Assembly: GCF_009914755.1 (NCBI RefSeq)
Contig: NC_060934.1
Origin: the human T2T-CHM13v2.0 reference genome, Homo sapiens
Direction: 5' to 3' (one strand)
Length of the DNA: 64,000 nt
The notes under the pieces: model-generated
What the model was told of the DNA's origin: nothing
What the model saw: only the letters and a program-made list of their open reading frames with translations
Database searches by the model: none
Shown: positions 1,495 through 42,680 of the stretch, piece after piece
How positions within the stretch are numbered: the stretch's first letter is position 1
Layout of the letters: every line of letters starts with the position of its first letter
Translations under genes and position numbers: made by a program

Positions 1495-2480
1495 TAACAA
1501 ACTTAAATACCTTGATAAAAATACCTTCATAATGACCTGGAAGACCATGTTTGAGTTTAGAATTCTGAACTCTTTGGAATGCTGCGCCAGAACATTCCAG
1601 CACAGGGAAAACTGGCCCCACCCAGCCTCCTCTTCTCCATTCTACTGGCTGTATCCTGTACTGCAAGGGGTCTCCTGCACATGTGTGAGGATACCCGGGT
1701 GCATACATCTAAGCTTCATCCATACCCCTCACAAACAGCTGCCCCCTGGCTATCCTGTTTTCTCAGGGGTGCGTATACTGATACATGGTTAACCCTCAGG
1801 ACCATGGATCAACGAAGAAGCCTGGTTAGGGCCCAGATGCATGCTCATTGCCCTCTGGGTAGCAAATTCCATGGTCTCAGGTTTCTAGAATGTGATCTAG
1901 AAGGCAGTGGGGTGCTGTGTGGAGTGACCACAGTAGAGCTACAGCAAGGTCCTCTTAACAGAGCCTAAAGCAGAAGCTCCTCCTGGCTGGGTGTAAGGGT
2001 ATTTAATCCATTATATAATAACACATAAATACATACGTTATTAGGTCAGTTGGACAAATTGTCATCTGTCCAGTCAAATTTGAAGAATATTTTGAACCAA
2101 TTTGAACCAGTGTTTCAAACCAGTGTTTCATAGTATAAATGTTGGTGGATAAACAAATTAATATCAGCTATAAACAATGCCAGTGTAAAAATATTTCTGA
2201 ATATGATGATCAGAATAATCAAACCAATGAACCTTATCACAAAACAAGCTTTGAATATCCTGCTTAGGCAACTTTGGATAAAAAGTCTTTCTATTTAGGT
2301 TCTTCCTAACTTAAGAAAGGTTACCATCACATTATATATACCTAGGGGGCTAAATTTACTCAGGTCATAATTACTTAAACTCACTGACCAATTATTGTAA
2401 ATACTTCCATAAAATTCCGAGTAGCTGAACAGAAGGTATGGGCTTGAGTTCAAACCCTGCCTTAACTCACCAGCTACTGA

Positions 2481-2785
<305 letters not shown>

Positions 2786-3293
2786 ACAAGCTAGTGATTT
2801 TTAAGCAACTCACTTAACCTCTTTCATCTTAATGTAAATGAGAAATAATACTACTACTTTTGAATACTAAGTACTCAAAAAGTACTTTTAATTAGCAAAG
2901 GATTTAATAAGTAAAATTAATTGATTTATTACTAACATTAAGAATGCAGGGGGAGGAGGGAATTAAAAAAAAATGCAGTGGAAAACATGTTCTGGGCTGA
3001 GTGATTCTCTGGCCAGTGGGACTCAGTAGCTGGCAGCATGGTGAACTGGGAAGCTGCTACTGGTACAGGCCAGAGTCTACATCTCCCAGGACAACTGAAA
3101 AAGGTGCTTCAGGCTCTCCATTTCCATGGAGATGCCTCAAAAGCCATGAGGAGGAAGAGAACCCACTGTTTGAACCTGTAACTGTCAGACAGACACCGAA
3201 GCAAGCTCTGGTTCTGTTCAAGTAATGCTACCATTAACCTGCCATTGGGAAAAGAGAGGGATGTGAACCAATAGAGTAGGCATCCCCTCCTTA

Positions 3294-4125
<832 letters not shown>

Positions 4126-36419: not shown

Positions 36420-38385
<1,966 letters not shown>

Positions 38386-38830: not shown

Positions 38831-38847
38831 GCTTTATAACAAATCTT
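38831..38847 (+). repeat. Left target-site duplication of the HERV-H/SVA insertion (GCTTTATAACAAATC[TT])
   Basis: Identical to 42664-42680; last TT ambiguous with the poly(T). Confidence 0.95.
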
Positions 38848-40499
38848 TTTTTTTTTTTTAATTTATTATTTTATTGATAATTCTTGGGTGTTTCTCACAG
38901 AGGGGGATTTGGCAGGGTCATGGGACAATAGTGGAGGGAAGGTCAGCAGATAAACAAGTGAACAAAGGTCTCTGGTTTTCCTAGGCAGAGGACCCTGCGG
39001 CCTTCCGCAGTGTTTGTGTCCCTGATTACTTGAGATTAGGGATTGTTGATGACTCTTAACGAGCATGCTGCCTTCAAGCATCTGTTTAACAAAGCACATC
39101 TTGCACCGCCCTTAATCCATTTAACTCTGAGTGGACACAGCACATGTTTCAGAGAGAGGGTTGGGGGTAAGGTCACAGATCAACAGGATCCCAAGGCAGA
39201 GGAATTTTTCTTAGTGCAGAACAAAATGAAAAGTCTCCCATGTCTACTTCTTTCTACACAGACACGGCAACCATCCGATTTCTCAATCTTTTCCCCACCT
39301 TTCCCGCCTTTCTATTCCACAAAGCCGCCATTGTCATCCTGGCCCGTTCTCAATGAGCTGTTGGGCACACCTCCCAGACGGGATGGTGGCCGGGCAGAGG
39401 GGCTCCTCACTTCCCAGTAGGGGCGGCCGGGCAGAGGCGCCCCTCACCTCCCGGACGGGGCGGCTGGCCGGGCAGGGGGGCTGACCCCCCCACCTCCCTC
39501 CCGGACGGGGCGGCTGGCCGGGCGGGGGGCTGACCCCCCCACCTCCCTCCCGGACGGGGCGGCTGGCTGGGCAGAGGGGCTCCTCACTTCCCAGTAGGGG
39601 CGGCCGGGCAGAGGCGCCCCTCACCTCCCGGACGGGGCGGCTGGCCGGGCGGGGGGCTGACCCCCCCACCTCCCTCCCGGACGGCACGGCTGGCCGGGCG
39701 GGGGGGCTGACCCCCCACCTCCCTCCCGGATGGGGCGGCTGGCCGGGCGGGGGGCTGACCCCCCCCCCACCTCCCTCCCGGACGGGGTGGCTGCCCGGCG
39801 GAGATGCTCCTCACTTCCCAGATGGGGTGGCTGCTGGGCGGAGAGGCTCCTCACTTCTCAGACGGGGCAGCTGCCGGGCGGAGGGGCTCCTCACTTCTCA
39901 GACGGGGCAGCCGGGCAGAGACGCTCCTCACCTCCCAGACGGGGTCTCGGCCGGGCAGAGGCGCTCCTCACATCCCTGATGGGGCGGCGGGGCAGAGGCG
40001 CTCCCCACATCTCAGACGATGGGCGGCGGGGCAGAGACGCTCCTCACTTCCTAGATGTGATGGCGGCTGGGAAGAGGCGCTCCTCACTTCCTAGATGGGA
40101 TGGCGGCCGGGCGGAGACGCTCCTCACTTTCCAGACTGGGCAGCCAGGCAGAGGGGCTCCTCACATCCCAGACGATGGGCGGCCAGGCAGAGACACTCCT
40201 CACTTCCCAGACGGTGTGGCGGCCGGGCAGAGGCTGCAATCTCGGCACTTTGGGAGGCCAAGGCAGGCGGCTGGGAGGTGTAGGTTGTAGTGAGCCGAGA
40301 TCACGCCACTGCACTCCAGCCTGGGCACCATTGAGCACTGAGTGAACGAGACTCCGTCTGCAATCCCGGCACCTCGAGGTTGGCGGATCACTCGCGGTTA
40401 GGGGCTGGAGACCGGCCCGGCCAACACAGCGAAACCCCGTTTCCACCAAAACCAGTCAGGCGTGGCGGCGCGTGCCTGCAATCGCAGGCATTCGGCAGA
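38846..40499 (-). mobile_element. SVA retrotransposon (SVA_D-like) lacking the CCCTCT hexamer: Alu-like ~40499-40230, VNTR ~40230-39366, SINE-R ~39365-38861, poly(A)
   Basis: Typical SINE-R sequence, GC-rich VNTR units (ccggacggggcggctggccgggc), antisense Alu-like domain, AATAAA at 38875-38870 and T-tract 38846-38859. Confidence 0.95.
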
Positions 40500-40537
40500 C
40501 TGGCACCCTTTATCTATAAAACCGGGTCACTCTGCAG

Positions 40538-42555
40538 CTTCCACTCTGAGAGTTACTCAAAGCTCGGCGTCCGTGATGGCCTATGGGGCTTCCGAGGCGA
40601 TCGGGCAGCATCAGTCTTCAGCCGCTAAGCCGAGAAGGAGTCAGTCAGAGAGCCTTGGGCCAGAGTTGCAGGGGCTCGGGGAGTGGCTGCCAGGTGAGTT
40701 GAACAGTCTAATTTCCAGTAGGGTCCCGCACAGATGGGACACGGCTTAGGAGGAATCCTGGGCTGCAGGCATTCCTTGCCCTGGTGGTCAGATTTCTGGC
40801 ACTTGTAGCAAGCTCCTGGGGGAGGAGGTTCTAGAAGAACGCCTAGCCGCTGCGGTTCAGGCATTTGGAAGTTCTTGTATGCTGGAGATGTGGCTGGGGT
40901 TTGTCTCACAGTGGAGCCAAGGAATTGCAACTTTTTTCTATTATTGTACACCTTGAAGGCAAGGTTAATTAAATCCTGTTGTGGGGTTTGAGGGCCGGAA
41001 TTTAATTTTTGGAGTTTTATTTAATGTCGGGAGCAGATCGGGTAATAAAATGTATATTGAGAATAAGATGGCCTTTTGACCTTTTAGGGTCTAGGGCTGT
41101 AAAGCGTCTCAGGGTTGCTGCCGAACGAGCCATGAACTGGGCTGGGTTTTTATATTTGATGAAAAAGAGCCTAAACGCTATGTGATTTGGGATAAAGAAA
41201 AAGGAGCATTAACCCTGACTATGCCTTTGGCTCCAGCCACCTTTTTAAGAGTAAATTGCTGGGCAGGTGGGGGAGGGCTAGTCACAGAATGAAACTGTAA
41301 GTCGGACCAGGTGTGGGATGAAGGGGGGGGAGGCGCGGAGGCTGAGGAAGAATTGGGACCTAGCTTGGGCTGGCGCGGAGGGGAGAGGTCAGATGGGTCT
41401 GTAGAAGAGGAAGATTAGAAAGACTCAGCGCCGCTTGGGGTTGGGACTGAGGGGACAGGAGGGAGGGAAAGAAGGAAGATTTGGGACGAGTTGCACGGGG
41501 CACAGAGACTAGGAAGGGACTGATGTGTAAAAGAATGCCTGGACGTCAGGCACCTCAGACCATTTGCCCATTTTACGACAAGAATTATTTAGATCTTGTA
41601 GGATGGAAAAATTGAAAGCGCCGTTTTCCAGCTATTTGGAACTACTGTCGAGTTTGTATTGGGGTCAAGCGGCATTGCAGAAGAAAATAAGGCATTTAGG
41701 TTTTAGGTCAGGTGTGAGTTGAAGAGGTTTTAAGTTTTTGAGAACACAGGCTAAGGGAGAACAAGGAGGAATGGAAGGTGGAAGCCTACCCATAGTGAAG
41801 GAGGCAAGCCCAGAGAAAAGAGTAGAGACATGGAGAAGGGGTGGGGAGTTCTTGCCCTCCAGAAAAGCAGAGAAAGGGTTGGGGCACGGAAATAAGGGAT
41901 TGGGGCACAGAGATAAGAGGTTGGGGTGCGGAAATAAGCGATTGGGAGGTTCTTGCCCCTAGGAAAGCGGGACTTGCCTCTAAGGGTGAAGGAGAAGGGG
42001 TTGAGGGGTACTTGCCCCTGCCCCAGGAAAGGCAGAGAAGGGGTAGAGACAAGGAGAGAAGGGGTTGGGGTACTTGCCCCTTCCCCAGAAAAGCAGGACT
42101 TGCCGCTAAGGGTGAAGGACCAAGGCAGGTGTCCCTGCGTGGTCTGACACCCTTGAAACGTGGGTGTATAATCACAGAGGCGTCCCTGCAATGATTAAAC
42201 ACCAAGGGAAGGCTGCCTTCCCAGTCCGTGACCGGCGCCGGAGTTTTGGGTCCACGGATAAAACGTGTCTCTTTTGTCTCTACCAGAAAATGAAAGGAAT
42301 TGAAATTAAGAGAAGGGAGAGATTGAAGTGTAGCGCCAAGATTGAAAGGAGAAAGAGGTTGAGGGATAGTGAGGGAAGTTGGAGAAGAGAGTAAAAAGAG
42401 GCCGCTTACTGGATTTGAAATTGGTGAGATGTTTCTTGGGCTGGTCGGTCTGAGGACCTGAGGTCGTAGGTGGATCTTTCTCACAGAGCAAAGAGCAGGA
42501 GGACAGGGGATTGATCTCCCAAGGGAGGTCCCCCGATCCGAGTCACGACACCAAA
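40538..42555 (-). mobile_element. HERV-H internal 5' region (PBS, leader, pre-gag repeats, degenerate gag, start of pro), co-inserted with the SVA
   Basis: PBS TGGTGTCGTGACTCGGAT; gag zinc knuckles CYKCQKSDHQGKEC and CPICAGPYWKLDC in ORF 40625-40951; HERV-H-type leader repeats at 41840-42130. Confidence 0.93.
42536..42553 (-). other. Retroviral primer-binding site complementary to the tRNA-His 3' end
   Basis: TGGTGTCGTGACTCGGAT, 17/18 match to TGGTGCCGTGACTCGGAT, 2 nt after the LTR end. Confidence 0.9.
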
Positions 42556-42663
42556 TTTCATGTGCGTCCGTGTGAAGAGACCACCAAACAGGCTTTGTGT
42601 GAGCAACATGGCTGTTTATTTCACCTGGGTGCAGGTGGGCTGAGTCCAAACAGAGAGTCAGCC
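42556..42663 (-). mobile_element. LTR7 (HERV-H) R-U5 only; no U3
   Basis: GCTGACTCTCTGTTTGGACTCAGCCCACCTGCACCCAGGTGAAATAAACAGCCATGTTGCTCACACAAAGCCTGTTTGGTGGTCTCTTCACACGGACGCACATGAAA matches the LTR7 3' end. Confidence 0.92.
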
Positions 42664-42680
42664 GCTTTATAACAAATCTT
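42664..42680 (+). repeat. Right target-site duplication of the HERV-H/SVA insertion
   Basis: Identical to 38831-38847; followed by GAAA, giving TCTT/GA, an L1-endonuclease-like site. Confidence 0.95.

What the first reader, a model, noticed from the sequence alone, without database searches (positions are those of the whole stretch)
40500..40537. 38-nt orphan exon between a HERV-H splice donor and the SVA splice acceptor: a barcode for the source locus
Seen (minus strand): HERV-H ends ...GTAACTCTCAGAGTGGAAG at 40538, then CTGCAGAGTGACCCGGTTTTATAGATAAAGGGTGCCAG (38 nt, unlike HERV-H or SVA), then SVA from TCTGCCGAATGCCTGCGATTGCAGGC. From memory of the consensus sequences, HERV-H continues GTAAGT at exactly this point (a donor at the start of pro), and the SVA sequence here follows ...CTCCTGCCTCAG, a known acceptor in the Alu-like domain. 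Both breakpoints falling on splice sites implies two splicing events and a captured host exon ending in a typical CAG. This would be a molecular fossil of a HERV-H-driven chimeric lncRNA.
Basis: partly seen in the sequence, partly recalled or inferred. Interest (0 to 1): 0.72.

Follow-up and report, generated by a model that had tools for sequence, protein, structure and literature searches.

The report
Retrocopy of spliced HERV-H–exon–SVA RNA
The 38 bases are a real captured exon: they come from a unique spot on chromosome 20 just downstream of a HERV-H provirus, and they show that a spliced HERV-H-driven RNA ending in an SVA element was copied into chromosome 10 by LINE-1, a known kind of event.

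Summary
Window 42680-38831 (minus strand) is one LINE-1-type retrocopy. It has a 17-bp target-site duplication, one extra 5' G, LTR7 R-U5 starting at the likely transcription start, 2.1 kb of HERV-H leader/gag, the 38-mer, an SVA lacking its first part, and a poly(A) tail.

The 38-mer occurs only twice in T2T-CHM13: here and at chr20:19803696-19803733 (-), with 1 mismatch. There it is flanked by a pyrimidine tract plus CAG on one side and GTAAGT on the other. It lies 349 bp downstream of a complete HERV-H provirus.

The first 2118 nt transcribed from that provirus are 99.2% identical to the window copy; the next best genomic copy is 95%. The provirus continues with GTAAGT exactly at the breakpoint. 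Full-length SVAs of the window's subtype read ...CCTCAG immediately before the window's first SVA base.

One piece is missing. The only SVA within 231 kb downstream on chr20 belongs to another subtype (37/776 differences, against 7/776 for the closest relative). The acceptor SVA was therefore probably an allele that is lost or absent from CHM13.

The mechanism is already known (SVA exon-trapping, as in MAST2/SVA_F1). This is a single-copy new example. No paper describing it was found, but Damert 2009 and Hancks 2009 could not be read.

The parts
42664..42680 (-). 5' target-site duplication AAGATTTGTTATAAAGC
   Evidence: the same 17 bases recur at 38847-38831. The two bases before it on the element strand are TC, so the nicked-strand site reads TCTT/GA, a Y4/R2 site of the LINE-1 endonuclease type (the consensus is recalled knowledge).
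42663..42663 (-). one extra G between the TSD and the first LTR7-matching base
   Evidence: the chr20 LTR reads T at this position. Extra 5' G on full-length LINE-1-mediated insertions is ascribed to reverse transcription of the cap (passage in PMC4859970).
42556..42662 (-). LTR7 R-U5 only, with no U3. It starts 31 nt downstream of the first T of the TATAAG box of the chr20 5' LTR.
   Evidence: That this is the start site is inferred from the spacing to the TATA box.
40538..42555 (-). HERV-H primer-binding site, leader and gag remnant, ending at a conserved splice donor (exon 1 of the source RNA)
   Evidence: 99.2% identical to chr20:19808489-19806372. Weak matches, both below Pfam cut-off: Gag_p30 (E 0.0028) and zinc knuckle (E 0.0013). 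The chr20 copy continues GTAAGT after the last base.
40500..40537 (-). 38-nt captured exon (exon 2 of the source RNA)
   Evidence: Its only other genomic place is chr20:19803696-19803733 (-), with 1 mismatch, flanked by a pyrimidine tract plus CAG and by GTAAGT.
40236..40499 (-). SVA Alu-like domain, starting at the base right after a CAG acceptor. The hexamer repeat and the first part of the Alu-like domain are missing.
   Evidence: There is a private 8-bp deletion relative to all nine other SVAs aligned.
39376..40235 (-). SVA VNTR (boundaries approximate)
   Evidence: Tandem arrays of period 37-49 and 156-176 between 39370 and 40270.
38860..39375 (-). SVA SINE-R with AATAAA signals
   Evidence: all 39 scored non-self copies are 99% identical (40 of 1631 candidates scored, the window's own locus being one of the 40).
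38848..38859 (-). poly(A) tail: 12 A, or 14 counting the two A that open the TSD
38831..38847 (-). 3' target-site duplication

Best explanation
Window 42680-38831 (minus strand) is a single LINE-1-mediated retrocopy of a capped, twice-spliced, polyadenylated RNA.

Transcription started in the 5' LTR of the HERV-H provirus at T2T chr20:19804083-19808813 (minus strand), which is probably the locus called HERVH_20p11.23b. The RNA ran 2118 nt to a conserved donor (AAG|GTAAGT) just past the gag zinc knuckles. A 2638-nt intron was then removed; it held the rest of the provirus, its 3' LTR and 349 bp of flank. The RNA joined a 38-nt host exon. From that exon's donor (CAG|GTAAGT) it spliced into a CAG acceptor in the Alu-like domain of a sense-oriented SVA, and it ended at the SVA's own poly(A) signal.

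LINE-1 proteins then copied this RNA into chr10 between HACD1 and STAM. The pairwise divergence suggests roughly 3-8 million years ago. The copy has no U3 promoter and no offspring, so it is an inert fossil.

Shown here: the single-event structure, the source of exons 1 and 2, and all four splice-site sequences. Inferred: the acceptor SVA lay in cis downstream of the exon as an allele that never became fixed or is absent from CHM13. The core reading (a spliced RNA from this chr20 locus, retrotransposed) is at about 0.9. The 'lost cis SVA allele' sub-claim is at about 0.6.
For: (1) Single event. There is one 17-bp TSD pair, one poly(A) tail, no poly(A) at the internal joints, and one extra 5' G.

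(2) The 38-mer has exactly 2 genomic places at up to 3 mismatches, and the reversed control gave 0.

(3) On chr20 the exon is flanked by ...ctcttcctttttcag| and |gtaagtgc.

(4) The HERV-H part against the chr20 provirus shows 17 mismatches in 2118 columns (14 transitions, 8 of them CpG-type, and 3 transversions) plus one 7-bp indel (after dropping the first two columns, which are the TSD and the extra G). The next best of the 40 scored out of 2659 candidates is 95%. The window and chr20 share a G in ...CTCAGAGTGG where 10 of 10 other copies have C.

(5) The donor GTAAGT follows the breakpoint in the chr20 copy. GTAAG is present in 9 of 10 other copies.

(6) Full-length SVAs read ...CTCCTGCCTCAG directly before the window's first SVA base. 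Two of the four fetched (chr11, chr12) carry the window's own TCTGCCGAATGCC. Genome-wide there are 36 exact and 19 one-mismatch copies.

(7) The retrocopy starts 31 nt after the TATAAG of the chr20 5' LTR.

(8) The mechanism is established. [quoted passage not shown] PMC12593883 (passage) describes MAST2 exon 1 spliced into 'a polymorphic SVA_F'.

(9) A HERV-H locus named HERVH_20p11.23b (hg38 chr20:19,752,049-19,756,776, 4728 bp, near the RIN2 promoter) is reported as transcribed in colorectal cancers (PMC12145686, passages). The provirus found here is 4731 bp.
Against: No SVA of the matching subtype lies downstream of the exon in CHM13. The 231.5 kb from chr20:19803695 down to 19572196 hold one SVA (19729770-19731686, same orientation). 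It differs from the window's SVA at 37 of 776 compared positions and by an 11-bp subtype indel (the 11-bp indel also). The chr11:95.3 Mb SVA differs at only 7 of 776.

The subtype signature occurs on chr20 only at 5.07 Mb (+) and 36.87 Mb (+). The second splice therefore cannot be reconstructed on the present genome.

The exon ends in CAG and the SVA acceptor ends in CAG. The joint is thus ambiguous by 3 nt and compatible with a microhomology event.

A further 200 kb could not be fetched.

The equation with HERVH_20p11.23b rests on size and neighbourhood only; no liftover was possible. No RNA data were available to show that the 38-nt exon is used today.
Confidence: 0.85

Rival explanations
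1. The acceptor SVA is the one now at chr20:19729770-19731686, 72 kb downstream of the exon. The differences would have arisen afterwards by mutation or gene conversion.
For: It is the only SVA in the 231 kb downstream. It is full length, in the same orientation, with its own TSD. It has ...CCTCAG at the equivalent point. Its length from that point (1691 nt) is close to the window's (1643 nt).
Against: It differs at 18/264 plus 19/512 positions, against 3/262 plus 4/514 for chr11:95.3 Mb. It carries the 11-bp block that the window and its four closest relatives lack. It groups with another set of SVAs, differing from them at 11-14/283 and 13-16/512-515 positions; in whole-length BLAST its best non-self hit, chr19:61.2 Mb, is 93% identical. 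A source copy must share the subtype states of its offspring.
Confidence: 0.03
2. Cis-splicing into a matching SVA that still exists. It would lie more than 231 kb downstream, or it would have mutated at two or more of the 38 signature bases so that one search missed it.
For: Only 231.5 kb were scanned.
Against: No chr20 hit near 19-20 Mb appears. An RNA spanning more than 231 kb from a HERV-H promoter would be unusual (inference).
Confidence: 0.07
3. Trans-splicing: the donor of the 38-nt exon was joined to the acceptor of an SVA RNA transcribed from another chromosome, and the product was retrotransposed.
For: No matching SVA lies in cis. Matching-subtype SVAs exist at 55 places elsewhere. 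Both joint ends are still exact splice sites.
Against: Trans-splicing is rare in human cells (general knowledge). A lost polymorphic SVA is the simpler explanation and is the accepted one for MAST2/SVA_F1 (PMC12593883 passage).
Confidence: 0.06
4. The exon-SVA joint is not a splice. It arose from a template switch of the LINE-1 reverse transcriptase from a 5'-truncated SVA RNA onto the HERV-H/exon RNA, helped by the shared CAG.
For: There are 3 nt of microhomology (CAG) at the joint, and no cis SVA.
Against: The switch would have to leave the SVA exactly at an AG acceptor and enter the other RNA exactly at an exon end that is followed by GTAAGT in the genome. An RNA ending there is not a normal 3' end. 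The first joint (HERV-H to exon) removes a 2638-nt intron with perfect signals, so the RNA was certainly spliced.
Confidence: 0.03
5. Two separate insertions happened to lie side by side on chr10: an SVA, and a HERV-H/exon retrocopy.
For: None found.
Against: A single TSD pair brackets the whole. There is no poly(A) or TSD at 40500/40499.
Confidence: 0.01

Closest known systems
SVA_F1 (MAST2 exon 1 spliced into an SVA_F, then retrotransposed); chimpanzee pt_SVA_D6 (STK40 exon 1)
   Same: An upstream exon ending at its natural donor is joined to an AG acceptor inside the SVA Alu-like domain. The chimera is mobilised by LINE-1. For MAST2 the acceptor SVA was described as polymorphic. Sources: PMC6139936 passages, PMC12593883 passage, PMC4859970 passages.
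   Different: [quoted passage not shown] Here it is near the 5' part, so most of the Alu-like domain is kept. Here there are two upstream exons, the first being 2.1 kb of HERV-H driven by an LTR7-type promoter rather than a gene's CpG-island first exon. Those chimeras founded subfamilies (94 elements for pt_SVA_D6), whereas this one has no offspring.
HERV-W processed pseudogenes (LINE-1-mobilised retroviral transcripts)
   Same: The retroviral RNA starts at R, lacks U3, and has a poly(A) tail and a LINE-1-type TSD (PMC5537654 abstract; the structural details are recalled).
   Different: [quoted passage not shown] Here the sequence is HERV-H. It is a single event rather than a group, it ends at a splice donor instead of the 3' LTR, and its poly(A) is supplied by an SVA.
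HERV-H-driven chimeric lncRNAs of pluripotent cells
   Same: The LTR7 start site and an internal HERV-H donor are spliced to downstream host exons (PMC12228294 passages).
   Different: Those are RNAs seen today. This is a DNA copy of one such RNA fixed in the genome.
LINE-1 template-switch chimeric retrogenes
   Same: Two unrelated RNAs lie in one insertion with one TSD (recalled knowledge).
   Different: Those joints fall at arbitrary positions. Here both joints fall on splice sites.

Membership tests
LINE-1-mediated retrocopy (target-primed reverse transcription) | Target-site duplication flanking the whole insert | tested here: met
   A 17-bp TSD at 42680-42664 and 38847-38831.
LINE-1-mediated retrocopy (target-primed reverse transcription) | 3' poly(A) tail after a polyadenylation signal | tested here: met
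   12-14 A at 38859-38846, after AATAAA motifs in the SINE-R end.
LINE-1-mediated retrocopy (target-primed reverse transcription) | Introns of the source locus are absent | tested here: met
   A 2638-nt intron between the HERV-H donor and the exon is missing, as is everything after the exon donor.
LINE-1-mediated retrocopy (target-primed reverse transcription) | Endonuclease-type target (TTTT/AA-like) | tested here: inconclusive
   The site reads TCTT/GA on the nicked strand, which is pyrimidine4/purine2 and 4 of 6 consensus bases. The consensus is recalled.
SVA exon-trapping chimera (SVA_F1 type) | The upstream part ends exactly at a splice donor of its source | tested here: met
   CAG|gtaagt at the chr20 exon and AAG|GTAAGT in the chr20 HERV-H.
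SVA exon-trapping chimera (SVA_F1 type) | The SVA part starts right after an AG in intact SVAs | tested here: met
   ...CCTCAG| is present in 5 of 5 full-length SVAs read. The exact subtype junction occurs in 36 copies.
SVA exon-trapping chimera (SVA_F1 type) | An acceptor SVA lies in cis, in sense orientation, downstream of the exon | tested here: not met
   The one sense SVA within 231.5 kb is of another subtype. This is not a bar to membership, since the MAST2 acceptor SVA is likewise described as polymorphic.
SVA exon-trapping chimera (SVA_F1 type) | Amplification into a subfamily | tested here: not met
   The 38-mer is present only at the source and in this one copy.
HERV-H provirus (retroviral integration) | Two LTRs with U3, and a short TSD | tested here: not met
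   The window copy starts in R, has no U3 and no 3' LTR. The chr20 source has both LTRs (8 mismatches in 431) and a 5-bp GTGTG duplication.

The most novel reading that the evidence does not exclude
The SVA half was joined in trans. No matching SVA exists in cis in a complete human genome, so this insertion could be a fixed DNA record of a trans-spliced RNA (a chr20 HERV-H lncRNA donor joined to an SVA RNA from another chromosome) that LINE-1 then copied into the germ line.
Probability: 0.06. Interest if true: 0.7.

Novelty: new member of a known kind. Interest (0 to 1): 0.42.

Why it matters
This fossil names its own source. It shows that the HERV-H provirus at 20p11.23 was already producing a capped RNA, spliced from its gag-end donor to a 38-nt host exon, in cells that contribute to the germ line a few million years ago, and that LINE-1 was active in those cells.

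It is a rare case of HERV-H sequence moved by LINE-1; a review abstract calls HERV-W the only HERV group so mobilised. It also preserves the sequence of an SVA allele that seems no longer to exist at the source locus.

It adds an acceptor near the 5' part of the Alu-like domain to the examples of SVA exon-trapping that ended in retrotransposition.

It does not change the understanding of the mechanism. The copy itself has no promoter, no offspring and no evident function.

Tried and rejected
1. The chr20:19.73 Mb SVA was tested as the acceptor and rejected on sequence.

2. The source SVA was sought by similarity. The Alu-like part, the SINE-R and the whole SVA part each returned only 40 scored copies out of 2880, 1631 and 3901 candidates. 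None lay near chr20:19.6-19.8 Mb. The best whole-length match is chr7:151376223-151377861 (95%, same VNTR length), but it reads CCTGCCGAGTGCC at the junction rather than the window's TCTGCCGAATGCC. SVA copies are too alike for a source to be named from these calls.

3. One search used the wrong locus id (L010 instead of L011) and says nothing about SVAs. It was repeated correctly.

5. Literature. Four full-text searches and passages of PMC6139936, PMC10681720, PMC12593883, PMC3794087, PMC9132208, PMC12228294 and PMC5537654 gave no description of this chr10 element. The three papers most likely to list it are not held: Damert 2009 (PMC2775593), Hancks 2009 (PMC2775590) and the Hancks & Kazazian 2010 review (PMC2945828). 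So 'not in print' cannot be claimed. No supplementary files were opened.

7. 'H10_1' of Damert 2009 was considered as a possible name for this element. It is the SVA_F1 source element, not this one.

Full report
**What is in the window**

Read on the minus strand, the region from 42680 to 38831 is one colinear insert. Its parts, in order, are:
- a 17-bp direct repeat (AAGATTTGTTATAAAGC, 42680-42664);
- one G (42663);
- LTR7-type R-U5 sequence from GCTGACTC... to ...CATGAAA (42662-42556);
- a primer-binding site, leader and gag remnant of HERV-H (to 40538);
- the 38-mer (40537-40500);
- SVA sequence: the Alu-like domain from TCTGCCGAATGCC, tandem arrays between 39370 and 40270, and SINE-R;
- 12-14 A;
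- the same 17-bp repeat (38847-38831).

There is no poly(A) and no repeat at either internal joint.

The gag identity of the last part before the joint is weakly supported. A frame at 40628-41020 carries a zinc knuckle (Pfam zf-CCHC, E 0.0013, 19.1 bits, below the 20.8 cut-off). A frame at 41017-41208 matches Gag_p30 (E 0.0028, below cut-off).

**The 38-mer is unique and has one source**

With up to 3 mismatches it occurs once in the window, with 0 of 100 shuffles matching. It occurs twice in the 3.1-Gb assembly, with the reversed control at 0: the window itself and chr20:19803696-19803733, minus strand, 1 mismatch.

On chr20 it is preceded by ...ctctctcttctcttcctttttcag and followed by gtaagtgc. 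That is a strong acceptor and a consensus donor. It is therefore an exon, not a piece of HERV-H or SVA.

**The HERV-H half comes from the provirus next to that exon**

A complete HERV-H provirus lies 349 bp upstream of the exon on the same strand, at chr20:19804083-19808813 (4731 bp). Its LTRs differ at 8 of 431 positions, and it has a 5-bp GTGTG duplication.

The window's HERV-H part aligns colinearly to chr20:19808489-19806372. There are 17 mismatches in 2118 columns (14 transitions, 8 of them at CpG, and 3 transversions) and one 7-bp indel, giving 99.2% identity. This is; the script's 19/2120 includes two leading columns that are the TSD end and the extra G.

In the genome-wide search the next best copy is 95% (chr4) and the rest are 93% or less. 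That search scored 40 of 2659 candidates.

The window and chr20 share a G in ...CTCAGAGTGG where all 10 other copies examined have C.

**Both ends of exon 1 make sense for an RNA**

The copy begins 31 nt after the first T of TATAAG in the chr20 5' LTR. It carries one extra G there. The review PMC4859970 (passage) ascribes such a G to reverse transcription of the cap.

The copy ends at ...GAGTGGAAG, and the chr20 provirus goes on GTAAGT. GTAAG follows at the same point in 9 of 10 other HERV-H copies; one has ATAAG. The donor is thus a family feature.

The intron removed is 2638 nt. It contains the rest of the provirus and its 3' LTR.

**The SVA half starts at an acceptor**

Four full-length SVAs close to the window's were read, as was the chr20 SVA. 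All five have ...ctgattctcctgcctcag immediately before the base that corresponds to window 40499. Two of them (chr11:95.3 Mb and chr12:119.9 Mb) continue with the window's own TCTGCCGAATGCC.

That exact 38-nt junction occurs 36 times in the genome, and 19 more times with one mismatch.

So all four splice-site sequences needed for two splices were seen in genomic DNA. The exon ends in CAG and the acceptor ends in CAG, so the second joint is ambiguous by 3 nt. That is what splice consensus predicts, but it also allows a microhomology reading.

**The piece that does not fit**

I scanned chr20 from 19815233 down to 19572196, which covers 231.5 kb downstream of the exon.

There is one SVA, at 19729770-19731686. 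It is full length, in sense orientation, with its own 15-bp TSD, and lies 72 kb from the exon. But it is of a different subtype:
- It reads CCTGCGGAGTGCC at the junction.
- It has an 11-bp block that the window and its relatives lack.
- It differs from the window at 18/264 (Alu-like) plus 19/512 (SINE-R) positions.
- By contrast, chr11:95.3 Mb differs at 3/262 plus 4/514.
- Its own nearest relatives are other elements.

A parent must share its offspring's subtype states, so this SVA is rejected.

The window's junction signature occurs on chr20 only at 5.07 and 36.87 Mb, both on the plus strand. Similarity searches with the SVA parts could not name a parent, because only 40 of 1631-3901 candidates were scored per call and copies are 96-99% alike.

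The simplest reading is that the acceptor SVA was a young insertion downstream of the exon that was never fixed, or is absent from CHM13. PMC12593883 (passage) says the same for MAST2/SVA_F1. Three other readings remain open at low odds:
- an SVA further away or with a mutated signature;
- trans-splicing;
- a reverse-transcriptase template switch.

**Mechanism and age**

The structure meets the marks of a LINE-1-mediated retrocopy: a TSD, poly(A), loss of introns, a 5' end at a start site with an extra G, and a pyrimidine/purine nick site (TCTT/GA).

The pairwise divergence from the source is 0.80%. Scaled to human-chimpanzee divergence (about 1.2% for about 6-7 Myr, recalled values), this gives about 4 Myr. 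A slower pedigree rate would double that, and the count of 17 carries about 25% sampling error. I give 3-8 Myr. I cannot say whether the insertion is human-specific.

The copy lacks U3, so it has no LTR promoter. It lacks the SVA hexamer and the first part of the Alu-like domain. It left no offspring, since the 38-mer has only two places.

**What is known**

Splicing of upstream exons into SVA, followed by retrotransposition, is an established class. The sources seen here are PMC4859970 passages, PMC6139936 passages on MAST2/SVA_F1 and STK40/pt_SVA_D6, and PMC12228294 passages on HERV-H donors and SVA acceptors.

This element is another member of that class, with three unusual features:
- Its upstream exons come from a HERV-H-driven RNA.
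- It uses an acceptor near the 5' part of the Alu-like domain instead of its 3' end.
- It is a dead-end single copy.

The abstract of PMC5537654 calls HERV-W the sole HERV group mobilised by LINE-1, so a HERV-H example is uncommon.

The source provirus is probably HERVH_20p11.23b: hg38 chr20:19,752,049-19,756,776, 4728 bp, annotated LTR7B, near the RIN2 promoter, and transcribed in colorectal cancers (PMC12145686 passages). This rests on size and neighbourhood, not on a liftover.

I found no paper describing the chr10 element. The primary catalogues (Damert 2009, Hancks 2009) are not held and no supplements were read, so prior description cannot be excluded.

**Verdict**

The acceptor SVA is unresolved. 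This is a new member of a known kind, of moderate interest.

Noticed in passing
L002/L003, chr20:19804083-19808813 (minus): The source HERV-H provirus is complete in outline: 4731 bp, with a 5-bp GTGTG duplication. Its two LTRs differ at only 8 of 431 positions, which is little for this old family. Either it is a young copy or the LTRs were homogenised.
   Followed up: partly
L027, chr7:151376223-151377861 (+): A full-length SVA whose part after the acceptor has almost the same length as the window's (1639 vs 1637 nt). It is 95% identical right through the VNTR, which suggests a close sibling lineage. It differs at the junction motif (CCTGCCGAGTGCC).
   Followed up: partly
window 40376 region and 39140 region (minus strand): The window's SVA has a private 8-bp deletion in the Alu-like domain and a 3-bp deletion in SINE-R. 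Neither is seen in any of the nine other SVAs aligned.
   Followed up: no
window 42457-42451: A 7-bp indel (GTCCTCA, a local duplication) in the window's HERV-H leader, relative to the chr20 source.
   Followed up: no
window 37599-38015: A tandem array of period 160, 2.6 copies and 89% matches, made of Alu-like sequence, just outside the retrocopy.
   Followed up: no
L011, chr20:19729770-19731686 (minus): A full-length SVA with a long hexamer region and a 15-bp TSD (GAATCCTAAAAGAGT). It sits in sense orientation 72 kb downstream of the HERV-H-linked exon, so it could itself trap transcripts from that promoter today.
   Followed up: no
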